This document shows, in pieces, positions 937 to 17,349 of a DNA stretch of 20,000 nucleotides (its first letter is position 1; every line of letters starts with the position of its first letter). The notes below the pieces were generated by a model that was not told the origin of the DNA, did not search any database, and was given only the letters and a program-made list of their open reading frames with translations. The stretch is from Catajapyx aquilonaris (taxonomy: Eukaryota). The translations under genes were made by a program, and so were the position numbers. The DNA lies in NCBI GenBank assembly GCA_000934665.2, contig KZ538366.1:60291-80290 (forward strand), written 5' to 3'.

Positions 937-3900
937 ATGATGGCCAGCAGTGCGCCTTCGCCACGTCGCAACTCGTTGTCGACGGCTAACGTCTGCACTG
1001 GTGACAATGTGGAGCAGGTGTTTGACGTGGTGTCGCGTGAGTTCTACGCGCTTGGGTACTACGACTCATCGGGCGGGGTGTCGTCCAACGGGGGTAAGCC
1101 GGACTTGGTCGCGCTTCTCAACGGGGCGATGGCGATGCTGAGGCAGGTGCGTCGGAGCGAGATGCATCGGGAGGAACTGCAGCAGCGGTTGAACCGTGCG
1201 AACTCGGATATGCAGCATCTTCAGAAGGTGCGGGACTACCTAAAAGAACAGCTGGCGTCGAAGGAGAAAGAGGTGGCCGAAGCGCAAGAGAAGGAACGGC
1301 AATCCAGCCAACAATCGGCTGAATTGCAACTGGAGCTGAAATCCAAAAAAGCACAGGTCGTATCAAAATGTACGCTTCGTACATGTTTGAATCTACATGT
1401 CCAGTATAATTGCAGGTGGCGCAACTGGTGTGCTCGCAACAGCATCGGGAGATCCAGTTTCAGCATGAGCTGCGGAAGACGTCGAGCGAGAACCAGCGTA
1501 TGAAGGAGCATCTTCACCGCAGCATGGCTAACAAGAAGGCGGAAGCTGCATTGGGAATGGAAATACTTAATCCGGGCGGACGAGGAACACTGTCGGGGCC
1601 GTGCAAGCGGTTGCAATGGAAAACCGAAGCATCGCTCGCAAAGTAACGACATTACAAACATTACTAAACAATTGTAATGTTATCATGAAAATGGACTTAG
1701 GGGACTTTGGAATCACTCGTCAATATTACGAGATGACTGAAATTGTAATAATTGCAGGGTCGAACAACAGGTTGATCTGGATGTGATTCGGATGCTGGAG
1801 CGTCGTCAGCAGGAGTTCGTCGAGGAAAACCATTCGCTGTTGGGGCTTCTGACGACTGCGACTCATCACATGCACATTTGGACCAGGAGGATGTCGGATT
1901 TGCTGAAGGTACCGGTATGATCGGAATATACAGCAGTTGTACTTTATTTGGCGTACATAACAGCGTGAAGGGTCAGAGTGGCGTACATTGTAACCAGGAA
2001 GGTTAAGCTAGTGGCGCTGCTGGCCTCTATCGGCATCGTTTCATTGGCGTGGATGACCCGAGGTATGCAGTGACCCTCTGGAGTGAGCTCGTCCGCAAAT
2101 GTAGCCGTCGACTGCTCCGGATCGCCAACGCATTTACCGGACTCCAATAGCGACTGGTGATACTCAGATTCAGTTCCGTTTCCACGTGCGACCATAACGA
2201 GCCAGCCCAACTCGTCACATTCGCATCTGAACACATTTTGGGACACCGATACATTTCGGAAGGACGCGACGTCCGGATGGAGCGAACCAGGCTCGGCCAG
2301 ATGAACGTAGTTGCCGTTCATTACGAGCGTTTCGCCGGAGACACGCTCAAACGCACCTGTCGCCAAGTGATAAAACACGTTGCTGCTTATGTTCACCAAC
2401 TGCGATTGAACCTTGAGTGCGCCAGGCTCCACCGGTTCCTCCACACTATTGGAGCTGAATTCAAACTGGGTTGATGTCACCTCGACCGATCCGGCCTCGA
2501 GGTGAATAATGTGGCAGCCGTTAAATGTGACATGAGTTGCGTCCAGCTTAAGTCCGCCTGTTTGTACGTTGAAAAAGTACGAACCGGCTATGTACACATG
2601 GCTTGTCTCGTTTAACGGTGGCGACACTTGAATCGCGCCCGGTGCAACTATCCGCACCGAGCAATTCACTAACTGAAAGCTACGTGCCAGTATGTCGCTA
2701 AATGCGCCTGGCGATATTGTACCGATTTCCGTGTTTTCAAATGCGACCGATTGCGGCTCGTACGATTGGATCGCAAACGTTTGAGTTGGGATCTCCGGTA
2801 TGTACTCGATGTTTTGGAACGCAACCAGAACTGTCGAGGTGAACGCGCCTGGCGAGAGATCGACTCGCGCTATGTCACGAAGGCGTACAAACGGTACGTG
2901 AACCGTCACAGGCGGGATGGAAACCTCAGCGCAGCCGGACAACGACAGTTCCAGAACGTCATCCGGAATGTGGAAGTTGAGCGATCCGAGATGCACAACC
3001 TGTCGGAAACATTTAATTAGAATCGACTTGGGTCTAATTAGTGCGTACTTACAGATATGTTGGCGTCACAATTGCAGTCGATACTGATGAGCCCGAATTC
3101 CTCGGCGCAATTGCAAATGTGCAGATCGCAAAGTGAACCTTCCGCATTGTTACAGGCGGCAACGAGAAGGATTAATAGAATGAGCGGCATTGTTTTGCTG
3201 CCGAAATGCTTCATGCCACGCTTTCATTTAGTGTATGAGATTAGCCGTGGGGCAACCTCGTGATTAATTTGTTGCGTGGGATGAAAAGCATTGAACCAAT
3301 TTGATTACTTTATTTCGGGAGGGGGAGGCCACGGGAGGGGAAAATGGTTTTGTTGACGCTCACTTTTTTTATTGATAAAACCAGTTTTAGTGCTCGTCAT
3401 TCTACAAGTGTCGAGCAGGTGGTGCTGCACAGCTTCCTGTGATTGCATGCTGTTGGAGGGAGAGATAAGTCTGCGAAGAATATATTACTTCCTGTGGTCG
3501 GTCCGTACACAATTTTGCTTTACTAATCAAAAGCCACTGCACAACATTTTCAAGTTTGTATCGGCACATTTGTACCTAAAACAACATTGCAAGCACCCAA
3601 AGAATAATCGAGTTAATACATGTTACAATCGCACTGGCCGCAGATTTTTCATTGTTTTTCGGGCAGGCTGTTGTTGTCGAGATTGTCGGTTTCGATTGCG
3701 AACTGGTGCCTCCTTCCTTGTTGCATAGGTCCAAAGCGATCTTGATTTTCTCGCCAGAGTTGCAGTCGTTGTCGTTGACCAGCTTCAGGAACAGTTTGTC
3801 GTACTGTGTGTTCATGAACTCGGCTTGCATACCTTTCAGTACCCAAGGAAGCATATTGCAATCGCATGGAAACTTGTTCCCAGCCAGTTCGACCGTCTGC

Positions 3901-6488
3901 GAACGTACCTCAAACGGAGCGTCCACGTCTCTGATTGTGTTGCTGTTCATCGTGAAGAGCGAAGAGTTGATTTGAAATGCGCCTCGTTCGATTATCTGCA
4001 AAGTGCTGTTTGAAATATGGAACGTGTGGACGCTGATTTGGAATGCGCCAGATTCGACTAGCTGTACTTTTGAATCTTGAAGTACGAACGAAGCGTCTTG
4101 CGACATCGTTGCTTTCACAGCGCCCGATTGAAACGCCCCGATTTTGCAGTTGCGGAACTCGATATTCCCGATCAAGAAGGCCTCGTCGAACGTGTCGCCT
4201 CCGACGTACCCAATATACGAGTCCAAATACGTGACGTTGCTCATATGCTGCGGATTGATCAACATATTCTCGGTGACATTAGTGTCCTTCACGTTCTCAA
4301 CCAGCAAATGAACTTCGGAGCTGAGGAACAACGCTTGTATGAGCAGCCGCTTAACGTTGAACACGTGCACATGATGAACCTTATCGAAGTAGAAGACGTC
4401 ACCAGCCAAAGTCACATTCTCGCAGGACGAGAAGGAAATGTTGACGGCCGTCGTTGGGATGCTGTAAGCTCCGATAACAATGTCGAATTCCTGGAAGAAC
4501 ACCAGTTCAAATGTTAACAATTTGCACACTTTTCCTTTATACGTAACTAGCGGTTTTAGCGAGATAATTACTGATATTGAAATGTAAATCATGTCGACAT
4601 GGCTTTAGACAACTCGTGCCTACTGCGACTGAAATAATACCTGATGATCAGAAGGACACTTGCAGTCTATCGTCACCGGAGCCTCATCATCCGGAAAACA
4701 CTGACAACCGCTCTCCAGGCACATGTGAATCTTACTCTCAACCCGATGCGAGACCGCAATCGCAACGATCAGCAGTACGAAAAGCACTATGCACGACATG
4801 ATGTCAGAATGGCACAAAAAGGCACTACGGTTTTGATTTTATAAAAACAATATACTTCGGAAAGAGCAGGAAGTGGGAAGCATTGGTCAAGACGGCTGCA
4901 CCAAGGAGGAAATAACTTGCAAAAAATGTGAGCCGCACGGATTTTCAGTTGCGTGATAGACTAATAAAATATCCAAGCATTGCATGGTGCGATTACTGTA
5001 CCTGATTATTCGGTGTGCACTTGCAGTCTATAGTCAGTGGAGACGAGTCGTTCGGAAGACACTGGCATCCGCTTTGCAGACAGATGTTCCCCTTGTTTTC
5101 CACCTGATACAACGAGTGACACGAGACGATGACTGCCGCCACCACGACAAGAACGAAGCGTGACATGTTGTCGGAATGGCGCAAAAGCAGCAATGACTTT
5201 TTTTTTTAAGGGCTACTCCAAGAGGAGCCTTCCAAAGGCAGGAAGTGGTGAACTTCCGCTCTTAGTTGGCTGTGGTTTTTATTTTATTGCTATTAGTCAC
5301 ATACGTAGGCTAAACCGGAATGATTTTGACCACATCCTGTTTGCTGCAGATTCATTCTCGTTAATATGAATTCTCCATAATTTTTTATAGGAAGAAGAGC
5401 AGAGTACTTGTGAGAACGGAGCGGTTTCCGTCGACAGCATGCCGAGCCAGCTGGTCAAGGGAAAGGTCACAAGGGTCATCAGAAAGTGCGACGAGACCTG
5501 CGAGAGAGCAGCCGAGTACGCCGCAAACAGTCAGTTCCATTTGATTCGATTCATTAAGGTTAATCAGAAATCTCAGTACGTTGGAAATAATGTACAAAAA
5601 AAAGTTATGTCCCCACCGAATTGCGGCTTCGGGAATTTGAATGCCGCACTTACGACTTTCTGAGGCAAACCTTTTAAGGAAATAAATTTATGCGCTTCCT
5701 GCCTTTATGCAACTACTGACTTTTTAATAACTGTGCAATTGAAGAATTACGATCCGTTGAATCCGCGGCATTGGAACATTTGCGCTGATGAATTACATGA
5801 AACCGCATAATCCGTCATCGATTTTATATCGATCTAATGCGTACTTTTGTTCTCAAGGACTGGCCTCGTTGGAGTCGGAATTGGAGAAGTACGAGCATAA
5901 GGAGCACGAGTGGAAGGAAATCATGGCGAAGTATCTGGACAACCCACTCGGACAAGGTACTGTGTTGTTGATTGTTGTCATGCCGATTTTAATGTACCCG
6001 GCCAAGTAGGTCCGTGCGGGGATGATAATGCGAACGTGGCCTTCCTACACGACGCTTATATCCTGGAAGAGAAGACGCAGTTTGAGCAGGAAAAGCAGGA
6101 GCTGGAGAGGGAGAAGCTGCGGCTAGCCGAGGAGAGACGGACTTATACGGACTCATTCAGCCAGCTCTACGTCGAGGTCGGTTTATCGCAACTTCTGTAC
6201 CGCATTTTTCCCTAACGTCTTTTTAATCTCATGTAGAAAGAGGCGTTTCGTCAGCAGAAGATGAAGTTCTTTCTGTCGCAATTCTGCCAGACTCCAGCCG
6301 GACGCAGCAACGATAATCCGTGGTACACGCCTCCTTGTCGGACGCCTGGAGTCGTCCGGATCACCTCGGAGAACAACACTCCAGCGACTAGCCCCACTGC
6401 CAAATCTAGAACCCGAGGACACTGGTCCGCCCCTCCTTCCACGGCCAGGTCGAGGCTCAAGTTCTCGCCAACCGACGATACCGACTGA
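937..6488 (+). CDS. SSX2IP: Afadin- and alpha-actinin-binding protein (SSX2IP/ADIP/Msd1)-like centrosomal coiled-coil protein, ~486 aa; exons 937-1356, 1416-1642, 1758-1914 (alternative donor after 1908), 5391-5529, 5858-5956, 6010-6176, 6237-6488
   Basis: All six introns are GT..AG and phase-consistent (0,2,0,1,1,0); spliced length 1461 nt = 487 codons. Motifs recalled from the ADIP family: CTGDNVEQ..REFYALGY, QFQHELRK..ENQRMKEHL, GMEILN..QWKTE, RRQQEFVEENHSL, FLHDAYILEEK..EERRTYTD. A short upstream coding exon (517-543, MSSTLCAPS, donor at 544, acceptor TAG at 934-936) is possible but unsupported. Confidence 0.85.
1944..3190 (-). CDS. LRR-like secreted, probably GPI-anchored cell-surface protein, paralogue A (~397 aa); exons 3190-3053 and 2999-1944; nested in SSX2IP intron 3
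   Basis: Exon 1 translates as MPLILLILLVAACNNAEG-SLCDLHICNCAEEFGLISIDCNCDANIS (signal peptide + Cys cap) followed by donor GTAAGT; 53-bp intron ending ttccgacAG; exon 2 has repeats of the type NxxIxxIxPGAF, an LRRCT-like NVFRCECDELGW..C..C and a hydrophobic C-terminus preceded by small residues (EASSA). Confidence 0.85.
3576..4799 (-). CDS. LRR-like secreted, probably GPI-anchored protein, paralogue B (~357 aa); exons 4799-4641 and 4490-3576; nested in SSX2IP intron 3
   Basis: Exon 1 MSCIVLFVLLIVAIAVSHRVESKIHMCLESGCQCFPDDEAPVTIDCKCPSDHQ then GTATTA; acceptor ttcttccAG at 4492-4491; exon 2 repeats (NCKIGAFQSGAV, DSKVQLVESGAF, NSTLQIIERGAF), NKFPCDCNMLPW, Ser/Thr linker and hydrophobic tail IILWVLAMLF. 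Minus-strand AATAAA at 3373-3368 and 3314-3309. Confidence 0.85.
5002..5166 (-). CDS. Orphan duplicated first exon (signal peptide + Cys-rich N-cap, 55 codons) of the LRR-GPI family; candidate alternative first exon for paralogue B
   Basis: MSRFVLVVVAAVIVSCHSLYQVENKGNICLQSGCQCLPNDSSPLTIDCKCTPNNQ with intact ATG and phase-0 donor CAG|GTACAG; 17/27 identities with B exon 1 over the Cys cap; no body exon between 5002 and the B promoter region. Confidence 0.75.
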
Positions 6489-7563
6489 TTGTGATCTAAT
6501 GAATATTTTTACACTTTAGCAATAAGAACAATCGAGGTGCGTTGGGCAGCGTACATATCTATGCATTTCATTGTGATTAATTCGGCTGCCTTAAAGTTCG
6601 TCCCGAGTTGACTGATGTGCGGCCTTGTACGCAAGGTTAAGTCAATCCCATTTGGGGACAGTTTAACATGTGCTCGTCGCAATGGATAGTTCAATTTTTA
6701 CGCCCATATTGTCAGATTAATATTTATTGCCAAGTACTTGTTCATTAATTGTTGAGTACGTGAAGAAATTAATATCGTTTGCTAGCCCATTTGGCATCGA
6801 CGCATTTGCACACCGATAATAACTTTTTGAGTGTGTTCGCTACGTGAAATGCGCTTATCCGCGTCCTTTTCACGCTAAAGCCGTGTACGCTAAGCGTTGC
6901 TCAACTTTGTATATAATTATGTGTAACGAGAACGGCGACTTTTTTTTTTGTACAGGATTTAAATTGAAAAAAAAAACGTCTATTTATGTACCTCTTTTTT
7001 GCAAAGTAATAATTACAGTACTGAGCTATTTTTCGTGCATTTTCTTTGCTGGTACCTTCGCCAAGTAACAATGGCTTGAGAACCATGGCCTCATCGATTT
7101 ATTTAAAAAGCGTGACGACTTGGGGAAAACAATTGGTTTAATAGCATCCAGCCATTGTTTCCTGCTCGGTAGTTACAGTTGGGGAATTGGACACGCATTA
7201 TTCAATTAGCAACACATGCCATTAATATTTAGCAATTTCGGGTGCGATTGCCCAATTCCAGCAGTACTTAACCGCCAGCCGTACTTAACCGTAAGTACTT
7301 GCTCGAGTCGCGCTCTACAAAATTTTCTGAAATGAGGCTGTCGGTTTCGTTTTATTCTGGATAAATGCGGATACATTGGGTCGTCAGGTAGAAGGATCGA
7401 CAGCAAACTTTATTTTCGTGCATTAAAAGCAGCCATTACATGCATGAACGTTTCCGTTTGGATAAAGCAGAATCTTCGATTGCACAGTGTACGACCTGAC
7501 GTAACGGCCAAAGCGCTAACGAGTTGTCGTAATGTACGGGAAATCCAATTGTCGCATCCGGTG

Positions 7564-8943
7564 TTAGAAACGTATGGTAATCCACAGCAACGTTATGGTT
7601 AGGAATGTTGCGGATGGAGCATCGGCTCCACATTTGCTGACTTGCGGTGCGGGCGTTGACGACGTTTTGGTTCGTCTTTTTGCCTTTGTTGCTGTGGTTG
7701 GCTTTGTTGTTGTGATTCGCTTTGTTCGCACTGAAGGCGGCGGGGTTGAAACCGTAGTTGTTGTCATGTCGGCCATACAATTGTCGATGTCAAGTTTCAT
7801 AATATTTTTCGTTTGCGTGCACCAGTTGTTGTACACAAAGTCCGGGTACGTACCAGTCTCACTAACAACGGCCATTATCCACATCACATGCTGGCAATCA
7901 CAGGGCAACGTGTTGTTGATGACCACCGATTTTTCAGATCTGACGTTAATCTGGCCGTCTAAATAGTCGAATCGATTGTTAACAAACGTAAAGGTAGTCA
8001 CGTTCAGCCAGAATGAATCAATTTCGGCCCAGTTGAACGTACTGTCCAGGAGCATGAATTCATGTATGTTCATGGCGAACGCGGCTGTGTGAGTCTTACT
8101 GACGATGCTATTGGTCATGATGAACATACCCAACGGAGCATAAGTTGCGTCAAATGCACCCGTTTCAATGGTTCCGATTTGCGTGTACCTGATCTCAACA
8201 CTTCCCAATTCCAACGCACGTTCAAACGCATTCCTTTCGATAACCCCAACGTTAACATTCCAAAAAGTGATGTTCGTCGTATAAAATCTGTTGGTCAGGA
8301 AGCCCTCCGTGAAGTTAAAGCTCCCTATGTTTTCCACCTGCAAATGTACATTCGACAAGAAGGTAACCCTCTGCATATGGAGATACTGCACGTTCTTGAT
8401 GCGGACCAGCTCCAGATCGGACGAGTTGAACCAGAAGGTGTCGATATTCAAATATTGACAACCCATGATGCTCAGGCTGACCGCATTTAGCGGAAACTCA
8501 TGCAGGTCATTGTGAAGAGTCATATTCTGGAGAAAAAAAAAATTATGTCATTCAGCAACGTAACGATGAATGAAAACCATAACGTACATTGGGTTTACAT
8601 CGGGGTTACATCAGGTTTACATCGGGTTTACATCGGGGTTACATCGGGTAAAACATAGCGCACTTTACGACGATGTACAAACGACGTAAAGTCCGCACCA
8701 TTTCAACAGATTGAGCTTAATTCCGAAACGCATCTGCGGTACCTCTAAGAGTACCGGTACAGTTAAAGTGACGTACAGAGCTAATATGTAAACTCTTACC
8801 TGTATTTCCGGGCTACATTTGCAGGCAATTATCACAGCGTCCTGGGCTTCTCCGACACATTCACACCCTTTCGTATCGCATATGCTCTCAGCGTCGGCCA
8901 GTATGTACGTGCCACACAGCACGATGAGTACGAGGCACCACAT
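7564..8943 (-). CDS. LRR-like secreted, probably GPI-anchored protein with Thr-rich stalk, paralogue D (~368 aa); exons 8943-8800 and 8526-7564
   Basis: Exon 1 MWCLVLIVLCGTYILADAESICDTKGCECVGEAQDAVIIACKCSPEIQ then GTAAGA; acceptor polyT-ctccAG at 8528-8527; repeats NVNVGVIERNAF, YTQIGTIETGAF; NTLPCDCQHVMW..NNWC; Thr/Pro/Lys-rich stalk; tail GADAPSATFLTITLLWITIRF. Minus-strand AATAAA at 7414-7409. Confidence 0.85.
8591..8649. repeat. 11-bp tandem repeat GGGTTTACATC, ~5 copies, in the intron of LRR paralogue D
   Basis: gggtttacatc ggggttacatc aggtttacatc gggtttacatc ggggttacatc gggt. Confidence 0.9.
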
Positions 8944-9612: not shown

Positions 9613-10192
9613 TCATGATGTTTTGTTTATAGCAGGGTGTGCCATGCGGAATAGTTGTCCGTTCCGTCCGTTCCTGATGGCCAGCTGCTCCGCTGTGTCT
9701 CCGGCCATGTTCTTGATTGTCGCGTCCACATGCGGATTCATCAGCAGCACCTCGATTGTCTTAGTCGCGTTGTGAGCCGCAGCCAGATGCAACGGGGTCT
9801 GTCCGCCACTGGTGAGCCCGTTAACGTTAGCGCCACGGTTCATCAGCAGATCCACACACTCGTACTGATCCCACCTGCAAAGTACGACCATCAGTACAAC
9901 ATCCGCAATGGGTACGGAAAGGGGCGTACCTGGCAGCCGAATGCAACGGCTGCCACCCGTCGTTGGTGCAGGCGCTGGCGTCCGCACCGCTGAACAGCAG
10001 GAAATCCACGACCTCCCTGTGCCCGTTGTAGCAAGCCCGATGCAGCGGAGTGTACCCGTCGGAGTCCCTCGACTCAGCCAGGAGACCCAGGTGCTCCTTG
10101 ACCTTCTGGAGGTCACCCGCTTCGGACGCCTTCAGAAGCGGATCCGACTCATCCTCGTAATCGTCCTCACTCGAACTCGACTCGACCTGCAT
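9613..10192 (-). CDS. ANKRD49: Ankyrin repeat domain-containing protein 49-like (~174 aa); exons 10192-9930 and 9874-9613
   Basis: Ankyrin repeats DSDGYTPLHRACYNGH, TNDGWQPLHSAARW, TSGGQTPLHLAAAH..IEVLLMNP match the recalled ANKRD49 pattern, with an acidic N-terminus; 55-bp phase-2 GT-AG intron; AATAAA at 9603-9598. Start at 10192 is inferred from an acceptor at 10195-10194 and a non-coding upstream exon ending at 11457 (AAG|GTAAGT). Confidence 0.85.
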
Positions 10193-10225
10193 CCTTCGAG
10201 ACAAAGAAACCATTGGGTTCACTAT

Positions 10226-11215
10226 ATGCTGTTGCCATGTGCAAACAAACACACAAACTTTCCGTTATATACGTGTAAATTTTGCATGTTTCATGGATTG
10301 TATTGTACCCAGTTTTACATTAATTGCGTAATTGTTGCCATGGCAAGCCATTGCTATGGTATGCTGTTGCCACGGTAGGCCGGTAGCTGTTAACATGGAT
10401 CATCGCAATGGACTCCCGTGGCAACAACTTGTCATGTTAAGCCGTTGCCATGATAAGCTGTTGCCATGCATGACAATGGCTTATCATGGCTACGGCTTAA
10501 CATGACAACGGCCATGATAAGCCGTTGCCATGCTATCCCGTTGCCATGATAAGCCGTTGGCATGCTAAGCTGTTGGCATGGACAAACAAACACACAAACT
10601 TTCCGTTATATACGTGTAAATTTTGCATGTTTCATGGATTGTATTGTACCCAGTTTTACATTAATTGTGTAATTGTTGCCATGGCAAGCCATTGCTATGG
10701 TATGCTGTTGCCACGGTAGGCCGGTAGCCGTTAACATGGATCATCGCAACGGACTACCGTGGCGACAGCTTGTCATGTTAAGCTGTTGCCATGCATGACA
10801 ATGGCTTATCATGGCTACGGCTTAACATGACAACGGCCATGCTAAGCTGTTGGCATGGACAAACAAACACACAAACTTTCCGTTATATACGTGTAAATTT
10901 TGCATGTTTCATGGATTGTATCGTACCCAGTTTTACATTAATTGCGTAATTGTTGCCATGGCAAGCCGTTGCTATGGTATGCTGTTGCCACGGTAGGCCG
11001 GTAGCCGTCAACATGGCAACGGCTTATCATCGCAACGGACTACCGTGGCGACAGCTTGTCATGTTAAGCCGTTGCCATGATAAGCTGTTGCCATGCATGA
11101 CAATGGCTCATCATGGCAACGGCTTAACATGACAGCAGCCATGATAAGCCGTTGCCATGCTATCCCATTGCCATGCCAAGCTGTTGGCATGGACAAACAA
11201 ACACACAAACTTCAC
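10226..11215. repeat. Higher-order tandem repeat: ~3 units of 341, 277 and 334 bp built from ~16-bp palindromic GTTGCCATGGCAA-like subunits
   Basis: Anchor CAAACAAACACACAAACTT recurs at 10242, 10583, 10860 and 11194; GTTGCCATGGCAAG at 10334, 10675 and 10952. Confidence 0.92.
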
Positions 11216-11456
11216 CTCACATACATTTTACAGTATTATGTAAAATTACATTGGCATATACAGTATTTTACCATGTTTTATGTATTGTATTGTACTATTT
11301 ATTTTACATGAATTATATGTAATTTCGATTGGAACGTGCAGGTAATTGAGGATAGCAAGTACGGTGCACTAATTGCCAGCTCGTTACGGCCTGATTAGTG
11401 GCTCAAACGGTGCACAAGCGTTGTACGAAATATTTGCATCGACATGTGCTACTTAC

Positions 11457-11645: not shown

Positions 11646-11827
11646 GTGAGTTCGGTCCTGGTTTTTTTGGCCTCGGGGCGGCCCCAGGGGCGGGCTGGAG
11701 TTGGCCCGTGGGCTGCCCCCATGTTGGCCCATGGTCTGCCCTCGAATTGGGCCGGATGGTCACACATACCCAAGTTCAGTTTTAATGACCTCTGCGTCTA
11801 ATTACAGGTTAATTAGGGCCCCATAAA

Positions 11828-12606
11828 ATGAGTGAGCTGGACCTGTACATGATCCTGCCAAGCGCACCGTGTCGTGCGGTGCTTCTAACCGCAAACGCAC
11901 TGGGGCTGAGCCTCAACCGTAAGATGGTCGACCTGTCCTTGAAGGAGCAGCTGAAGCCAGACTTTGTCAAGGTAATGCGGAACACGTAACGATGAACATT
12001 GCTAATCAAAGCATATTTCAGATGAATCCGCAGCATTGTATTCCGACGCTTGTCGACGGGGACTTCATAATGTGGGAGAGCCGGGCCATTATGGCCTACA
12101 TGGTGCAGCAGTACGGGAAGGACGACTCGCTGTACCCGAAGGATGCGAAGATACGTGCGAGGGTGGACCATCTGCTGTACTTCGACATGGGGACACTCTT
12201 CTTGCGGTTCCGATACTGCTACGTATGTCGTACTTTCCTTACGGGGTCGACAGGAGACTAACGCTCGTATTTGCAGCGACCGGTTGTGTTCGACGGGGAG
12301 CATTTTGATCCGAAGAAAGAAGAGGCTGTGTGCGAGGCATTGGGTTGGCTCGACGCCATGATTGGGGATAAGAAATGGGCCGCGTGCAACCAGCAGACCA
12401 TTGCGGACCATGCCCTGGCTGCTTCGTTGGCGACCCTCGAGAATGTTTGCGTGGCCATTGATTTCCAGAAGTACCCCAACGTCACCCGCTGGCTGCAACA
12501 GTGCAAGAAGGAGCTGGCCGGATACGAAGAAAACCACGAGGGAGCCAAGACATTCGGGGACATGTTCAAGCGAGCAATGGCCAAACTGCACATCCAACCT
12601 GCCTAA
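11828..12606 (+). CDS. GstD: Glutathione S-transferase, Delta/Epsilon class (224 aa); exons 11828-11971, 12022-12222, 12277-12606
   Basis: MSELDLYMILPSAPCRAVLLTANALGL..NPQHCIPTLVDGDFIMWESRAIMAY..LYPKDAKIRARVDHLLYFDMGTLF..TIAD..YPNVTRW; three exons joined by phase-0 GT-AG introns; putative non-coding exon ending 11645 (GAG|GTGAG) with acceptor at 11807; AATAAA 12645-12650. Class (Delta vs Epsilon) not resolved. Confidence 0.92.
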
Positions 12607-12738
12607 TTGTACAAAAATCACAGCACCATTGTGCATTATCTGATAATAAAAATGTGAAGCCCATTTGCTAGCAACTGGCTGTCAACAATCCGTATTGTTA
12701 AAGTAACCTCCCAACAGCAAAATGGATTGAGCGCAAAA

Positions 12739-13824
12739 ATGTCATTGGATTTGTATATGGTCCTGGCGAGTAACTCATGCCGTGCGGTGTTACTGACGGT
12801 GCACGCTCTGGGATTGCAAGTGAACCGGAAGATTGTCGACCTCCAGGCCAGCGAGCAACTAAAACCGTATTTTCTCAGAGTAAGTACCGCTGGGACCTTC
12901 AGTACTGTACGACTGATTTGTTGATTCATTCCGCAGCTCAACCCGACACACAGCCTGCCGGTTCTAGTCGATGGCGACTTCGTGCTATGGGAGAGCAGAG
13001 CAGTAATGGCCTACCTGGTGAACAAACAGGGGCCGGACAACGACCAACTGTATCCGGTTGATCCAAAGCGAAGAGCTCGGGTGGATCAGTGTTTGCATTA
13101 CGACCATGGGACCCTATTTACACGATTCAAGTACTGCTACGTAAGTCAGGTTACTGTTTGTAATAAGGACTATGAAGTAGTTGACAAACGGTAATTGCAG
13201 CAACGTGTGGTTCGAACTGAAAGCTACGTGGACCCGCGAAGGGAAGCCCTGCTATGTGAGGCTGTCCATTGGCTCGACCAGTACATCGGGGATCACAGGT
13301 GGGTCACAGGTAACCATCAGACCATTGCCGATCACGCCCTGGCTGCATCGATGACCACTATCGTCAAGTCCGCCTTCGTTGTTCATCTTGACGATTACCC
13401 CAACATTCAGAGGTGGCTGAAGACATGCAAGAGCGAGCTGAGAGGGTTTTCCGAGAATGAAGCAGGTGCTGTGGAATTTGCCCGCCTGTTCCACCGCTCG
13501 TTCTTTACCGGGCTAAAGACAGGATATGATGACACAAGGAGTGTCGTCTCAGAGGTATCTGAGCCTACACCGAGCGTCACACCAAGCGTCACTTCCCTGC
13601 AAAGCATTAGATCAGTCGCCTCGTCAATAGCTGATTCTGTGAAGAAGAAGTTCAGTAGGAATAAACCCTCTCAAAAACAGTACACATGTGCGTTTAAAAT
13701 ACTTTTTTTTTTTTTGCAATTAGTCTCTCGTTGTGTACAGATTTGGCAAACGGTTAAGCTAATTCACGTATGCGTTCAACTTTTTCGTCCTCGGTTTCGC
13801 TACATTCTTCCCAGATGCTTATGA
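12739..13824 (+). CDS. GstD: Second tandem Delta/Epsilon-class glutathione S-transferase with an apparent Ser/Thr/Pro-rich C-terminal extension; exons 12739-12879, 12937-13140, 13201-13824 (3' end uncertain)
   Basis: MSLDLYMVLASNSCRAVLLTVHALGL..LNPTHSLPVLVDGDFVLWESRAVMAY..TIADHALAAS..YPNIQRW; same intron positions as the upstream GST. The GST fold ends near 13500 but the frame stays open to 13824. Confidence 0.85.
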
Positions 13825-16304
13825 ACAGTCTTGCTAATCGGTGTGCAAACTTGTCTTGAGTTAGGATAGTGCGACACTCTGCAATCCATCGTTTCGTCTG
13901 TAAAAAAAACATGTTTGCTGGTGACTAGTCAGCAGAGGACAACCAAATGAAAGGCATATAACTTGCCTGGTTTTGCATGGAGTGATATTCCTCGTCTTTC
14001 TTCATAATTTCCTGCAACTCTTCTTTCGATACATTAAGAACAGAGCATGTGAGCGACTCTATTTCGTCCACTGTCGCGGACGACACCATCGAGGATTGGT
14101 CTGCATTGCGCTGCGCTTGCACCCGCTGACCCACCACTCTGACATACTCCTGGGCAATCGGAAACATTTGAGTACCGAATAGCATTACCAGCAACTAACC
14201 ATCGTACCTCCAGTGCCTTCATCATCTGGTGGGACTTGCCGTCTTCCTTCCTGGTGTGATGCGACAGATCAGTCTGCAGCCGGAACAAGTCCTCCTCCCG
14301 CAGCCTGATTTTTTCCTTCATTGAGGACAGCTGCAATGAACCAAGCGTCACCATCGCTCTAATATGACTGGAGGACAGTACCTGTCTGAAGTGCTCCTGA
14401 CGTTCATGGTTCAACGTGCTCAGAAGCTCCTCCTTCTGCTTCTTCTGCGTCCACAGCTGAGTCCTTAACGATGAACACTGCGGATTGCAAAGAGCGTACA
14501 TTGGTTAAAGAGTACGGATGGGTACAGGGTGACCCACAGGTAAGCTCACCTCAGCCTGCGCCTTCTTGCACTGGTCCCCCATCCTCTTGGCCTCATCCTG
14601 AGAGTCGGTCAGCTTACCCGTGACCTCCGCAGCTTCCCTCTTCAGGTCGCTTATCTTCATCTTGTACGCCTCCAACAGCAGCCTCCGGTTCTTGCTCTCG
14701 TTCACCTGCCGACGAATCCTGCAATATGCACCACAAGGATTATTTCCTTCAACAACCCATACTCAAGTGGATATGACCTGTCTTTGAGCGCATATTCTGT
14801 GTCTGGGTCGATCTTGACCTGCTGCTGTTGGTTGACCTGATCCTGTTCCTTCTGTCCTGATTTCAGCAGCATCTCCAGGTAGTTCTTGGTGTCCTGGAGC
14901 CTGGCCTCCAGCTTCCCGTGCTCCTCCAGATGCTTCTGGAGGGTCTGGCTCTTCGACTCCAGGTCGCCGTGGAGGACAACCATTGCCCTCTCGGTGTTCA
15001 TCTGCCTCCTTGTAACCACGTGTAGCTGGGAAAAATATCAGTTGAAGATGCCTGTTTACGTCCTCGCGATTTGAGCCTCTGTCGCACGACTTGAGCCTCT
15101 GTCGCACGACTTGAGCCTCTGTCGCACGACTTGAGCCTCTGTCGCACGACTTGAGCCTCTGTCGCACAACTAAAGCCTCTGTCGCACGACTAGAACCTCG
15201 GTCGCACGACTAGAAACTTTGCGACCTAGGGGAACCTATTTTTGTCGGTTTCAAAGCGTCTGGTCGTGCGACCGAGGCTCAAATCGTGGGGGCGTAAACA
15301 GGCCTTGAAGTGAACTACGCACCTTCGATCGCACGCGTCGAAGGAAGTACGTAACCTTTCCAGACGACGACGACTTCGGTTTGCAATTTAGTCGCGTGCG
15401 ACTGACGCTAGTAGATGCTGCGACCGAAAGCGGCTTATCGCTTTTGGCCGCTTTCGGCTGCTGCGTTTCTTCCGGAACTTGCTGTGCGGTCTCGACGCAG
15501 CTGGTCGCTTGTTGGGGTTGTCCTATACCCATGTAGACTGTGCTCTCACTGTCAGTGTCGGCAGCGGATAGGACGGACACGTGGCTCGCTCTGTTGTCGT
15601 CCAGCTTCACCGGGGGCGTCGGAGCGCGTTGCGACCGTGCGGACATGATGCTTTCGGTCGCTTCATTCAGAAGCTGCTGAAGCGGGTCGGCGTGACGCTC
15701 GTTGCGTCGCTGAGTCGGATCAGGAGAAACGCGACGTCGTTGCGCGTTGTCGCGTCGCTTATTCGAATCAGGAGAGCCACGACGTCGTTGAGCGTCGTTG
15801 CCGCGTCGCTGAGTCGAATCAGGAGAGACACGACGTCGCTGCGCGTCGTTGCCGCGTTGCTTACGTTCAGATTTAGTGGCGATCAGGGGCGTCCGCCTAT
15901 AGTATAAAAAAATGAACTGATATAATCACAGGCCTGTTGACGCCCTCACGATTTGAGCCTCGGTCGCACGACCAGACGCTTTGCGACCGACGAAAATAGG
16001 TTCCTCATAGGTCCGGTCGGTACGATTCGAATGTAGTCGTTCCTACCGGACATGTAGCAAAGCGTTGGTCGTGCGACAGAGGCTTTAGTCGTGCGACCGA
16101 GGCTTTAGTCGTGCGACCGAGGCTCAAATCGTGAGAGCGTAAACAGGTCGCTGTAGCATGAACTGACCATGGTGCTGCAGCGAGAGCTTCAGAGAGGAAC
16201 CTCTGTGACAGGAGGTCAGTGTCGATTGAGGCGGTTGACCCGCGTGATATCGACGTTGCGCTCAGCGAAGATTCAGACACGTCGTCCCACAGGTCACCAA
16301 CGGC
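13754..16304 (-). CDS. CNTLN: Coiled-coil protein, centlein-like (at least 546 aa, 5' end unresolved); exons 16304-16168, 15896-15356, 15025-14778, 14718-14550, 14477-14382, 14330-14208, 14149-13967, 13897-13754
   Basis: Eight exons join in frame (1641 nt) with canonical acceptors, six GT donors and one GC donor. The C-terminal part ALEEYVRVVGQRVQ..IESLTCSVLNVSKEELQEIM..KRWIAECRTILTQDKFAHRL resembles my recollection of the centlein segment LHEFVKALAKELQ..AASILNISRSDLEEIL..EWMLYIQKLLEGQLPFA. The gene structure is better supported than the name. Confidence 0.65.
15049..15304. mobile_element. MITE-like non-autonomous element, copy 1, with ~41-bp terminal inverted repeats and seven internal 20-bp tandem units
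   Basis: Left GCCTGTTTACGTCCTCGCGATTTGAGCCTCTGTCGCACGAC (15050-15090) is the near-perfect reverse complement of 15263-15303; TTGAGCCTCTGTCGCACGAC x7 at 15071-15210. GGCCTGTTTAC-type termini resemble PIF/Harbinger (Tourist-like) ends, but no TWA target duplication is visible. Confidence 0.8.
15930..16149. mobile_element. MITE-like element, copy 2, same family, opposite orientation, three 20-bp units
   Basis: 15930-16004 is the reverse complement of 15231-15305 with a few mismatches; right end GTCGTGCGACCGAGGCTCAAATCGTGAGAGCGTAAACAGG; 20-bp units at 16068-16127. Confidence 0.8.
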
Positions 16305-17349
16305 CTGAAAACGGGAGAAAAGCGCTGACCAACTTTGCCTTTTATAATCATTAATAATAATGAAGAATATAGCCTACAACATCGCTCTGACAGAGTCACT
16401 TGATCGTGTAAACACAGCACATAAAAAATGGTAGGAATAAAATCTCATTAAAAAAATAGATTAAAAATTGGCAAGGGGGATCTGAGCAGTGGTCAGTAGG
16501 TGTGCAACTATGGAGCTAGAAAGACATCGAAATCCACAGCAGGGTGGCGAGAAGATGTCATAAAAGCGCCATTTAGCTGAGGGAAAGCCACACATTTCCT
16601 GGTCGGGGAAGTATGTTGAGGGCCGTTCTGCAGGTACCGATTGCGGGTGAGTATTAGGTAGTACACGCAAAAGCCTACAGTTGGTAGACCTGTTTTGGCG
16701 GTAAGGAAATTGGCGGTCAGGCCGGCGACCCGTCACCACTGCTCCCATTCCGTTACTCGTATCGGATTCGTGACACCTTGTATCGTCATGGATTCGCCAG
16801 GCGCACCTACACCACCGGCGTTTGGTGCGCCTGCGATGCTCCGGCGTACAGCGATGCTCAGAGCAAACAGGGGCATAAGCGCCAAGTCATTCTTTTGGAG
16901 TGGACTTGGCTTGTTTTCCGATTCCAGCGTCACTTCCAACCAAACGAACCAGCAGACTAATAGCATTAATCTTATTTTTTTGACGGGAAGAAACGAAACG
17001 TATTGCGGAGGAATTTTCCTTCGTGGATTTGACGCTTTCACCCGCGAGAATTCGAAAGGGCCCAATAGGCCGGGGAAAATATGTTGTACTATACAACAAA
17101 TTCAGTTGGTACAATTCCCTTTATACAAAATTGGGGGCTGCAGGAGCAAATTGTATGCAACCCGAATCGACATCTTAAGGTCCCACAACCCTCAGGGATG
17201 CTGCTCAGACTTGGAGATGTGCTGCCCTCACCTCCTCCTAAAATTTGAAAGTCAGATATCCTATGCCCCGGATATATATACAAGTGACCCCGGCTCTAAA
17301 ATTACTTCTCCGTTCTTTTCGTTGCGGTTGCATTTTTATAGCACAGTAA

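What the first reader, a model, noticed from the sequence alone, without database searches (positions are those of the whole stretch)
1944..8943. Antisense cluster of divergent GPI-anchored LRR-like receptors interleaved with a centrosomal gene
Seen: three complete paralogues (A, B, D) share one architecture: signal peptide, a 5-Cys cap (C-x4-C-x-C-x(10-11)-C-x-C) on exon 1, a conserved sixth Cys early in exon 2 (LSGC/FSSC/IMGC), atypical Ile/Val/Phe-rich repeats (NxxIxxIxxGAF), a CxC-x3/4-W C-cap, a linker and a hydrophobic tail with no cytoplasmic domain. A and B sit inside SSX2IP intron 3 and D lies beyond its last exon, so host exons 4-7 interrupt the array. Established: this domain layout parallels GPI-linked LRR proteins such as Drosophila connectin and lamprey VLRB. 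Inference: a fast-diverging recognition or adhesion receptor family; no homology to those proteins is claimed and I cannot name the family.
Basis: partly seen in the sequence, partly recalled or inferred. Interest (0 to 1): 0.75.

Follow-up and report, generated by a model that had tools for sequence, protein, structure and literature searches.

The report
Arthropod GPI-anchored LRR-like solenoid genes
Three neighbouring genes in an arthropod genome encode cell-surface proteins built on a cysteine-capped repeat solenoid; they belong to a widespread but unstudied arthropod branch of the leucine-rich-repeat family and probably act as surface binding or adhesion molecules.

Summary
On the minus strand lie three intact two-exon genes (A 1944-3214, B 3576-4799, D 7564-8943) and a fourth, orphan exon 1 (C, 5002-5166). 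Each gene encodes a signal peptide, a 5-Cys N-cap, a sixth Cys, 21-25-residue Ile/Val/Phe-rich repeats with an Asn/Ser/Cys ladder, a 4-Cys CxC...W cap, a stalk and a terminal hydrophobic tail.

- **Expression:** transcript-like contigs from an independent run confirm D's 273-nt minus-strand intron and cover part of B.
- **Nesting:** A, B and C lie in an intron of an ADIP/SSX2IP gene. D lies beyond its 3' end.
- **Homology:** it can be claimed. Profiles hit solved extracellular LRR proteins (LRRC15 5e-25, LRIG1, TOL-1, Slit2, VLRs), and the alignments run through both caps.
- **Relatives:** uncharacterised proteins from insects, an ostracod, a lobster and a mite, mostly with the same terminal tail and mostly invisible to Pfam.
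- **Fold:** a high-confidence AlphaFold model (pLDDT 94) is an all-beta solenoid. It superposes best on straight right-handed beta-helices and on the flat TSH/FSH-receptor LRRs, and poorly on curved LRR arcs.
- **Untested:** GPI anchoring and any binding function are inferred. Nothing supports an immune or rapidly diversifying role.

Verdict: an uncharacterised, structurally unusual branch of a known kind. Interest is moderate.

The parts
3053..3214 (-). Gene A exon 1: start codon, signal peptide, 5-Cys N-cap (54 codons, phase 0)
   Evidence: Sequence read; spliced model; weak match to the N-terminal part of the family HMM. No transcript cover in run X5.
1944..2999 (-). Gene A exon 2 (with stop at 1944-1946): sixth Cys, about 11 solenoid coils, 4-Cys C-cap, linker, weakly hydrophobic tail
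   Evidence: AlphaFold model pLDDT 94.3. Family HMM E 3e-78. The 53-nt GT..AG intron (3000-3052) is predicted only.
4641..4799 (-). Gene B exon 1: signal peptide and 5-Cys N-cap (53 codons)
   Evidence: The 150-nt intron (4491-4640) is predicted only.
3576..4490 (-). Gene B exon 2 (stop at 3576-3578): solenoid, C-cap, stalk, hydrophobic tail; 3'UTR reaches at least 3319
   Evidence: X5 contig covers 3319-4264.
5002..5166 (-). Orphan exon 1 'C' (55 codons, intact start codon and GT donor), 200 nt upstream of B's start codon; possibly an alternative first exon of B
   Evidence: 28 of 51 aligned residues identical to B exon 1; pS 0.66, pN 0.23. A low-depth X5 contig covers 4951-5195 and runs through the donor.
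8800..8943 (-). Gene D exon 1: signal peptide and 5-Cys N-cap (48 codons); 5'UTR reaches at least 9002
   Evidence: X5 contig covers 8800-9002 and joins to 8526.
7564..8526 (-). Gene D exon 2 (stop at 7564-7566): solenoid, C-cap, Thr/Pro-rich stalk, hydrophobic tail; 3'UTR reaches at least 7467
   Evidence: X5 contig covers 7467-8526; the 273-nt intron (8527-8799) is confirmed with CT..AC ends on the + strand.
937..6923 (+). Host gene with ADIP (SSX2IP-type) domain; its large intron holds A, B and C on the opposite strand
   Evidence: Pfam PF11559 at 48.4 bits on ORF 937-1503. Last intron 6177-6236 and last exon to 6923 come from an X5 contig. The other exon borders are not verified.

Best explanation
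A, B and D are genes for glycosylated cell-surface proteins of the extracellular leucine-rich-repeat (eLRR) superfamily. They belong to a divergent, uncharacterised, arthropod-wide branch of it.

How each gene is built: exon 1 supplies the signal peptide and an LRRNT-like 5-Cys knot. Exon 2 supplies a sixth Cys, then an all-beta right-handed solenoid of about 9-11 coils. The C-terminal coils are regular 21-25-residue units with the LRR core phi-x-phi-x-x-N/S/C-x-phi. After that come an LRRCT-like 4-Cys cap, a Ser/Thr/Pro-containing stalk and a terminal hydrophobic peptide.

How it most likely works (inferred): the protein enters the ER and is N-glycosylated (6-7 sequons). The tail is exchanged for a GPI anchor. 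The solenoid is displayed on the outer leaflet, where a flat beta-sheet face binds a partner, homophilic or heterophilic and currently unknown. This is how connectin, chaoptin and the Nogo receptor work.

Shown here: gene structure (D), expression (D and part of B), homology, predicted fold.

Inferred: GPI anchoring, glycosylation, binding function.
For: Gene models and expression:
-; D's intron is confirmed and B is partly covered.

Homology to eLRR proteins:
- A profile of the three window proteins alone hits 15 solved chains at E<=0.01, all eLRR proteins (TOL-1 8.4e-8, Slit2 D2 4.6e-6). The alignments run through the N-x-x-P-C-D-C..W cap.
- The 34-sequence family profile gives LRRC15 5.2e-25, LRIG1 2.2e-21, TOL-1 5.7e-21, VLRA 4e-15 and Toll 1.4e-14. 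All 60 rows shown (of 179 at E<=1) are LRR proteins, and the N-cap aligns with LRRNT.
- Language-model neighbours are an unnamed arthropod cluster (0.90 and 0.92), then LRR families.

Family:
- The profile search of 1.84 billion representatives gave 327 hits at E<=1e-3 and 33 at E<=1e-10.
- In the 34-row family alignment the relatives share the LxIxxC motif and the CxC..W..C..C cap, and most rows that reach the C-terminus end in a hydrophobic tail.

Fold:
- The AlphaFold model of A has pLDDT 94.3 and pTM 0.91 and is an all-beta solenoid with a helical C-cap.
- The model of B has pLDDT 73.
- Foldseek lists only LRR proteins at the top, with probability 1.00.

Surface topology:
- N-terminal hydrophobic region, no internal TM segment, a hydrophobic stretch at the C-terminus with no cytoplasmic domain behind it (D's is interrupted by an Arg at the second-last position), and small residues 17-25 positions from the end.
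- 6-7 N-x-S/T sequons.
- Dolan et al. 2007 used the same manual criterion for tentative GPI assignment, and give connectin as SS, LRRNT, 11 LRR, LRRCT1, GPI (PMC2235866, passages seen).
Against: - No Pfam LRR, LRRNT or LRRCT model reaches its threshold on the window proteins. The best is LRR_8 at 12.7 bits in B against a cut-off of 27. A's best hit is Beta_helix at 23.8 bits, and D has none.
- A's tail is only weakly hydrophobic: mean Kyte-Doolittle 0.61 over the last 15 residues, against 2.15 for B and 1.61 for D.
- No GPI or signal-peptide predictor could be run.
- Run X5 is not on record as RNA. Its transcript nature is inferred from the intron-skipping joints.
- No ligand, tissue or phenotype is known for any family member.
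Confidence: 0.72

Rival explanations
1. They are parallel beta-helix (PbH1/pectate-lyase-like) proteins that bind or modify polysaccharides, for example chitin or matrix glycans. The LRR resemblance would be convergent.
For: - Pfam Beta_helix is the only near-threshold hit in A (23.8-24.4 bits against 25.9).
- Beta_helix passes its threshold in four relatives: P0048 53.3, P0026 43.2, P0004 36.5 and P0061 34.6 bits.
- UniProt names some relatives 'Right handed beta helix domain-containing protein'.
Against: - Every sequence-level match to a solved protein is an eLRR protein, and these matches include both Cys caps.
- Foldseek's 3Di+sequence ranking is topped by LRR proteins throughout; its few beta-helix rows come lower down.
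- No catalytic motif was identified or tested.
Confidence: 0.08
2. They are immune recognition molecules under diversifying selection, comparable to lamprey VLRs or mosquito LRIMs.
For: - Tandem paralogues with low identity (17-29%).
- VLR-like layout with a Thr/Pro stalk and a GPI-type tail.
- Very long branches across the whole family (median end branch 1.01 changes per column).
Against: - The genes are complete in the germline. Only 3 bodies lie in the 20-kb window and there are no cassettes.
- A groups with a subfamily of beetles and Orthoptera, with a mayfly protein beside it, so the A versus B/D split looks old and not like a recent expansion.
- No expression or challenge data exist.
- The only print mention found of a relative is an unnamed row in a whitefly virus-acquisition table, where it is mildly down-regulated (PMC7290374, passages seen).
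- The comparison with LRIMs is recalled, not tested.
Confidence: 0.1
3. The proteins are secreted, or held by a C-terminal transmembrane helix, and are not GPI-anchored.
For: - A's tail is weakly hydrophobic and ends in Lys.
- No predictor was run.
- Some relatives of 700-900 residues have a real transmembrane segment and a long conserved cytoplasmic tail (P0115, P0130).
Against: - B and D end in a hydrophobic stretch (22 uncharged residues in B; about 15, broken by one Arg, in D) with no cytoplasmic residues behind it, preceded by small residues 17-21 positions from the end.
- The same terminal tail recurs in most full-length relatives.
Confidence: 0.1

Closest known systems
Drosophila Connectin (GPI-linked eLRR adhesion molecule)
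   Same: Layout: signal sequence, LRRNT, LRRs, LRRCT, GPI (connectin's layout as given in PMC2235866). Arthropod. A lobster relative of the window proteins was named 'Connectin-like' by its submitter. The ESM 'Connectin family' cluster scores 0.82-0.84, which counts as a lead only.
   Different: Connectin is 691 residues with 11 Pfam-recognisable LRRs. The window proteins are 357-405 residues with Ile/Val/Phe-rich 21-25-residue repeats that Pfam LRR models do not score above threshold. They carry a 5-Cys N-cap plus a sixth Cys. Orthology was not tested, because no connectin sequence was fetched.
TSH and FSH receptor LRR ectodomains (flat, beta-rich LRRs)
   Different: They are domains of vertebrate GPCRs, have no GPI tail and have different caps. 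Sequence identity in the superpositions is 9-12%.
Nogo receptor, chondroadherin, LRIG1, LRRC15, Slit and TOL-1 (canonical capped eLRRs)
   Same: Sequence homology over the repeats and both caps. Top Foldseek matches with probability 1.00. NgR is GPI-anchored (PMC2235866).
   Different: They are curved arcs. Global superposition on the model of A is poor (TM 0.30-0.48, rmsd 6-11 A).
Lamprey and hagfish variable lymphocyte receptors
   Same: Layout of LRRNT, LRRs, LRRCT, Thr/Pro stalk and GPI-type tail. Solved VLRs are hit by the family profile (4e-15 to 1e-8).
   Different: VLR genes are assembled somatically from cassettes (recalled). Here the complete coding sequence sits in the germline with one intron. 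The similarity is that of LRR proteins in general.
Right-handed parallel beta-helix proteins (Pfam Beta_helix PF13229; phage tailspikes, PL6 lyases, AlgG)
   Different: No sequence-level match to any solved beta-helix protein appears among the rows shown. Beta-helix enzymes lack LRRNT and LRRCT cysteine caps. Most are microbial or viral.
Uncharacterised arthropod proteins found here (e.g. XP_031346899.1 Photinus, XP_018913143.1 Bemisia, XP_022650897.1 Varroa, KAF4516732.1 Ephemera)
   Same: True family members. They share the LxIxxC motif, the repeat type and the CxC..W..C..C cap, and most full-length ones share the terminal tail. The family HMM scores the window proteins at 3e-78 to 3e-56 (the window proteins are themselves part of that HMM).
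   Different: They are only 14-28% identical to A. Many beetle and orthopteran members have a different N-cap (C-x5-C ... C). All are unnamed.

Membership tests
Extracellular LRR (eLRR) superfamily | Tandem repeats with the core LxxLxLxxN/CxL (L = L, I, V or F; N = N, T, S or C) | tested here: met
   6-8 consecutive 21-27-residue units in A and B and at least 4 in D fit phi-x-phi-x-x-N/S/C-x-phi. The definition of the core is quoted from the abstract of PMC2946307 in the listing.
Extracellular LRR (eLRR) superfamily | Significant sequence similarity to established LRR proteins | tested here: met
   15 of 15 hits are eLRR proteins, the best at 8.4e-8, using a profile of window proteins only. 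LRRC15 5.2e-25, and all 60 shown rows are LRR proteins.
Extracellular LRR (eLRR) superfamily | Pfam LRR models at their gathering score | tested here: not met
   B scores LRR_8 12.7 bits against 27; A and D have no LRR hit; of the 34 family members, 6 hit LRR_8, 1 LRR_5 and 1 LRR_1 at E<=0.001.
Extracellular LRR (eLRR) superfamily | LRRCT cap: CxC, then W/L, then two further Cys | tested here: met
   One search gives the Cys positions: A 260, 262, 291, 312; B 209, 211, 243, 256; D 209, 211, 236, 250. It aligns to the LRRCT of Slit2 and TOL-1. Pfam LRRCT itself gives no hit.
Extracellular LRR (eLRR) superfamily | LRRNT cysteine cap | tested here: inconclusive
   The 5-Cys motif C-x4-C-x-C-x10/11-C-x-C is present. 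The N-cap of the family profile aligns to the LRRC15 N-terminus. Pfam LRRNT gives no hit on the exon-1 peptides. The cap could not be modelled together with exon 2.
Extracellular LRR (eLRR) superfamily | Arc or horseshoe-shaped solenoid | tested here: inconclusive
   The models are solenoids, but they fit straight beta-helices and the flat TSHR LRR better than curved arcs. This is a prediction only, and the coordinates could not be inspected.
Right-handed beta-helix (Pfam PF13229 / PbH1) | Pfam Beta_helix at its gathering score | tested here: not met
   A scores 23.8-24.4 bits against 25.9; B and D have none. At E<=0.001, 4 of 34 family members hit it.
Right-handed beta-helix (Pfam PF13229 / PbH1) | Three-stranded straight right-handed coil geometry | tested here: met
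GPI-anchored proteins | N-terminal signal peptide, plus a C-terminal hydrophobic peptide preceded by small omega-site residues, with no cytoplasmic domain | tested here: met
   by inspection only. A's tail is weak. No internal TM-like segment.
GPI-anchored proteins | Positive call by a trained predictor (NetGPI, PredGPI, big-PI), or release by PI-PLC | not testable with these tools
   No such predictor is on hand. An experiment is needed.
Connectin orthologues | Reciprocal best similarity to Drosophila Connectin | not tested
   No connectin sequence was fetched. Only the layout was compared.
Variable lymphocyte receptors | Incomplete germline gene completed by somatic insertion of LRR cassettes (recalled definition) | tested here: not met
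   The complete coding sequences lie in the germline DNA with one intron each. No further cassettes are in the window.
Pan-arthropod uncharacterised capped-solenoid family (defined here, alignment A3) | Full-length match to the family profile, with LxIxxC, the repeat body and CxC..W..C..C | tested here: met
   A scores 144.9 bits to firefly P0001 and 86.2 bits to Photinus P0091 in local phmmer.

The most novel reading that the evidence does not exclude
This arthropod-wide family is an eLRR lineage, LRRNT- and LRRCT-capped and LRR by sequence, whose repeats have shortened to about 22 residues and straightened into a three-sided right-handed beta-helix. It would be a natural bridge between the LRR and PbH1 solenoid classes, displayed on cells by a GPI anchor. 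In addition, gene B may use two alternative first exons (B1 and C), each encoding its own signal peptide and N-cap.
Probability: 0.3. Interest if true: 0.6.

Novelty: new variant of a known kind. Interest (0 to 1): 0.4.

Why it matters
GPI-linked LRR proteins such as connectin, chaoptin and the Nogo receptor are key cell-recognition molecules. The survey by Dolan et al. 2007 found only about two GPI-linked eLRRs in the fly (PMC2235866).

The family found here adds a conserved arthropod group spanning insects, crustaceans and a mite. Most of it is invisible to Pfam, and it is currently labelled either 'uncharacterized' or 'right handed beta helix'. Recognising it as capped eLRR proteins gives these genes a testable role in surface binding or adhesion.

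If the predicted straight beta-helix geometry is real, the family would also show how an LRR arc can turn into a beta-helix. That bears on how solenoid folds are classified and how they evolve.

Tried and rejected
Searches that gave little or nothing:
- Word-indexed homologue search with B: none at E<=0.01.
- The same tool with the 34-row alignment: only 3 psyllid proteins, because only the 7998 candidates sharing the most words were scored.
- Whole-genome search: no genome is held for this window. So no genome-wide paralogue count or synteny was possible.
- Earlier findings of this scan: none by place, by sequence or by words.

Sequencing runs:
- No RNA holder is listed.
- Gene A, B's exon 1 and the 5' part of B's exon 2 had no cover in X5.
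- No contig joins exon C to B's exon 2.
- Depths were not used to rank genes.

Structure and family scans:
- Foldseek against the PDB gave no match at E<=0.001 for either model.
- Pfam LRRNT and LRRCT gave no hit on the window peptides at E<=1.

Literature:
- Three keyword searches and one search on six locus names found no description of the family.
- The one hit, PMC7290374, lists a whitefly member only as 'uncharacterized' in a table.
- PMC12858984 (passages seen) held nothing relevant.
- Supplementary tables were not opened and could list family members.

Considered and dropped:
- Mosquito LRIM-type proteins (recalled: they need a coiled coil, and none is seen here).
- Insect antifreeze beta-helices (recalled: small and Thr/Cys-rich).
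- Pseudogenes (the ORFs are intact and two of the three are transcribed).

Selection of rows:
- Alignment A3 uses 31 of the 150 listed profile hits. I chose single-domain proteins of 240-485 residues.
- The tree uses 35 proteins (33 of the 150 listed profile hits and the two psyllid proteins), four script-cut pieces of P0001 and P0004, and the three window proteins, 42 rows in all.
- Multi-domain canonical LRR proteins and the transmembrane forms were left out of both.
- Names were looked up for 30 proteins. 19 carried an organism: 18 arthropods and one nematode, the nematode protein being a canonical LRR_5 protein.


Full report
**What is there**

The window is eukaryotic DNA: 105 N in assembly gaps, 39-56% G+C and introns of 53-273 nt. 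On the minus strand between 1944 and 8943 lie three open two-exon genes.

| Gene | Exon 1 | Intron | Exon 2 (coding part) | Length |
|---|---|---|---|---|
| A | 3214-3053 | 53 nt | 2999-1947 | 405 aa |
| B | 4799-4641 | 150 nt | 4490-3579 | 357 aa |
| D | 8943-8800 | 273 nt | 8526-7567 | 368 aa |

All introns are GT..AG and phase 0.

A fourth exon 1 without a body of its own (C, 5166-5002) has an intact start codon and GT donor. It sits 200 nt upstream of B's start codon. A family HMM run over all 520 stop-to-stop ORFs of the window finds exactly these three bodies and four exon-1 caps, and nothing else.

All of them are present.
- Exon 1 encodes a hydrophobic signal peptide and C-x4-C-x-C-x10/11-C-x-C.
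- Exon 2 opens with a conserved sixth Cys in an L-x-(L/I/F)-x-x-C context.
- The C-terminal half consists of 21-25-residue units of the form phi-x-phi-x-x-N/S/C-x-phi-x-x-phi-x-x-G-A-phi.
- Next comes CxC-x4-W with two further Cys.
- Then a linker with 22-39% Ser+Thr+Pro and a terminal hydrophobic stretch, with no cytoplasmic residues and no internal TM-like segment.
- Each protein has 6-7 N-x-S/T sequons.

**Expression and context**

No run on record as RNA holds the stretch. Run X5 is from the same coded organism but a different study than the DNA runs, and it behaves as a transcriptome.
- One contig joins 8526 to 8800, skipping exactly the predicted 273 nt with CT..AC ends on the + strand. 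That is a minus-strand GT..AG intron of D, and the contig spans 7467-9002.
- A second contig covers 3319-4264, which is B's exon 2 and 3'UTR. It stops a few bases before an AATAAA on the minus strand.
- A third, low-depth contig covers exon C and runs 50 nt past its donor.
- Other contigs confirm a 55-nt intron in the neighbouring ankyrin gene and the last intron (6177-6236) and last exon (to 6923) of the plus-strand host gene.

The host gene's first ORF carries the ADIP (SSX2IP-type) domain: PF11559 at 48.4 bits against a cut-off of 34.3. The exon numbering was not verified.

The ankyrin gene is ANKRD49-like. Its best named matches are Odonata, a termite and Hymenoptera at 53-59% identity. 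The organism is therefore an arthropod, probably a hexapod, with no closely related annotated genome in the protein collections.

**What it is related to**

Pfam is nearly blind to these proteins. A gets Beta_helix at 23.8 bits (cut-off 25.9), B gets LRR_8 at 12.7 bits (cut-off 27) and D gets nothing. A word-indexed search found nothing.

A profile of the three proteins searched against 1.84 billion representatives gave 327 hits at E<=1e-3 and 33 at E<=1e-10. They fall into two kinds.
- Canonical multi-LRR proteins (slit-like and chaoptin-like, Pfam LRR_8 up to 4e-119). These are matched through profile positions of about 80-215.
- Proteins of 300-480 residues that match end to end and mostly carry no Pfam family.

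The second kind shares the LxIxxC motif, the F-x-N-V-x-I..AF type of repeat, N-x-F-x-C-x-C..L-x-W-L and N-x-C....C-x-L-P...C. Most of the rows that reach the C-terminus end in a hydrophobic tail.

Names were looked up for 30 hits, and 19 carried an organism. Eighteen of those are arthropods:
- beetles: Lamprigera, Pyrocoelia, Photinus, Coccinella, Diorhabda, Phyllotreta
- Orthoptera: Anabrus
- a cockroach: Diploptera
- Hemiptera: Bemisia, Adelges, Nezara/Halyomorpha
- a stick insect, a wasp and a mayfly (Ephemera)
- an ostracod (Cyprideis), a lobster (Homarus) and a mite (Varroa)

The nineteenth is a nematode protein that is a canonical LRR_5 protein.

All are 'uncharacterized' or 'hypothetical', apart from automatic labels such as 'Right handed beta helix domain-containing protein', 'LRIG3' and 'Connectin-like'. 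Of the 34 rows of family alignment A3, 6 hit LRR_8, 4 Beta_helix, 1 LRR_5 and 1 LRR_1 at E<=0.001.

**Homology to LRR proteins**

- The profile made only of window proteins hits 15 solved chains at E<=0.01. All are extracellular LRR proteins (TOL-1 8.4e-8, Slit2 D2 4.6e-6, LRRC4, chondroadherin, TLR5-VLR, ELFN1). The alignments run into the C-terminal N-x-x-P-C-D-C..W cap.
- The 34-row profile gives LRRC15 5.2e-25, LRIG1 2.2e-21, TOL-1 5.7e-21, LGR5 about 1e-15, VLRA 4e-15 and Toll 1.4e-14. All 60 rows shown of 179 are LRR proteins, and the family N-cap aligns with the LRRNT of LRRC15.
- The language-model atlas agrees: an unnamed arthropod cluster comes first (0.90 and 0.92), then LRR families.

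The repeats fit the canonical positions L4, L6, N9, L11, L14, F19 and L22 of a typical LRR, with Ile, Val or Phe in place of Leu and a period of about 22 instead of 24 (the canonical numbering is recalled).

**Fold**

- B, folded with only three sequences, gave a beta-solenoid at pLDDT 73 and pTM 0.78.
- A (exon 2 up to the C-cap), folded with the 34-row alignment, gave pLDDT 94.3 and pTM 0.91. It has about 11 coils with 2-3 strands per coil, no helices in the repeats and a helical C-cap.
- Foldseek's top rows for A are all capped LRR proteins (chondroadherin 1.3e-3, LRIG1, SALM2, LINGO-1, NgR) with probability 1.00. But TM is only 0.30-0.48, rmsd is 6-11 A, and none reaches E<=0.001.

So by sequence and caps this is an eLRR protein, and by predicted geometry it is a nearly straight, all-beta solenoid. 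I could not inspect the coordinates, and the N-cap on exon 1 could not be modelled together with exon 2.

**Relations among the copies**

- B and D are each other's nearest relatives: 138 bits in local phmmer, 28% identity, sisters with 82% SH-aLRT.
- A is far from both (51 and 33 bits) and closer to beetle proteins (144.9 bits to firefly P0001, 86.2 bits to Photinus P0091). It joins, at 92% SH-aLRT (unstarred), a clade of 22 rows: 20 beetle- and orthopteran-type proteins, a mayfly protein and A itself.
- All branches are long (median end branch 1.01 changes per column) and the tree tool warns about long-branch joins, so only these coarse statements are safe.
- The cluster therefore holds at least two old subfamilies. 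It is not one recent burst.
- Firefly P0001 is a single gene model holding three family copies in a row. This suggests tandem arrays elsewhere too.

**Exon C**

Exon C aligns to B's exon 1 from about 25 nt upstream of the start codon to the GT donor, and not beyond it. Of 51 aligned residues, 28 are identical. Synonymous differences are near saturation (pS 0.66) while non-synonymous ones are few (pN 0.23, ratio about 0.17). The one coding indel block keeps the frame. This points to a maintained coding exon, most simply an alternative first exon and promoter for B. The sample is small and no C-to-B splice was seen.

**How it most likely works**

Shown:
- two-exon genes, of which D is spliced as predicted and B is partly covered
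- membership of a pan-arthropod family homologous to capped eLRR proteins
- a confidently predicted capped beta-solenoid

Inferred:
- ER entry and N-glycosylation
- replacement of the terminal hydrophobic peptide by a GPI anchor. This uses the same manual criterion as Dolan et al. 2007 (PMC2235866, passages). B and D look typical and A is weaker.
- display of the solenoid as a binding surface for an unknown partner, as in connectin, chaoptin and the Nogo receptor

The rivals are a glycan-acting beta-helix, an immune diversifying receptor, and a protein that is not GPI-anchored. They are set out separately, and none is excluded by experiment.

**Novelty**

Three keyword searches and one search on six locus names of the paper library found no description of the family. 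The only mention is an unnamed row in a whitefly expression table (PMC7290374). Supplementary files were not read.

The kind of protein, signal sequence-LRRNT-LRR-LRRCT-GPI, is well known. The branch, its repeat type and its predicted straight geometry are not described. I rate it a new variant of a known kind, of moderate interest.

Noticed in passing
window 5002-5166 (-), with 4925-5320 compared to 4560-4960: The orphan exon 1 'C' duplicates B's exon 1, from the 5'UTR to the donor. It looks constrained (pS 0.66 against pN 0.23) and has a low-depth transcript contig that reads through the donor. It may be an alternative first exon and promoter for B.
   Followed up: partly
window 11813-13824 (+): Two adjacent glutathione S-transferase genes. 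GST_N and GST_C Pfam hits fall on ORFs 11923-12261, 12262-12606 and 13195-13824. That their motifs look like the insect delta/epsilon class is recalled, not tested.
   Followed up: partly
window 9613-10264 (-): ANKRD49-like ankyrin-repeat gene. Its 55-nt intron (9873-9927) is confirmed by an X5 contig. The best named relatives reach only 53-59% identity (Odonata, a termite, Hymenoptera).
   Followed up: partly
window about 10160-11320: ORF translations recur almost word for word at several offsets (for example 10161-10331, 10501-10719, 10782-10949, 10826-10996). This indicates a tandem or dispersed repeat block between the ankyrin and GST genes.
   Followed up: no
window 1683-1714, inside the host gene: DNA run X1 shows a depth spike (214 against about 31), and several contigs break here with loose ends. 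This is probably a short, high-copy repeat.
   Followed up: no
proteins P0115, P0130, P0087, P0026, P0035, P0061, P0079, P0118, P0135 (profile hits): Relatives of 700-900 residues carry the same N-cap and solenoid, plus (read in P0115 and P0130) a transmembrane segment and a long cytoplasmic tail with shared motifs, ending in ...N-R-P-L-P-x-K-P.... The four whose names were looked up (stick insect, stink bugs, wasp) are uncharacterised insect proteins. This is a transmembrane sister group of the GPI-type proteins.
   Followed up: partly
protein P0001 (Lamprigera firefly, 1111 aa): One gene model contains three family copies in a row. It is either a fused annotation of a tandem array or a true multi-solenoid protein. 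It is the best hit of the window profile (3.5e-39).
   Followed up: partly
window 4016, 4026, 4065, 7739, 8903: Differences between run X5 and the window: in B, I212V and two synonymous changes; in D, P311L (stalk) and I14T (signal peptide). These are too few to say anything about selection.
   Followed up: partly
window 14000-16400 (-): Long minus-strand ORFs (for example 15251-15925 and 14702-15037) have a repetitive Arg/Gln-rich stretch and no Pfam match. They were not examined further.
   Followed up: no
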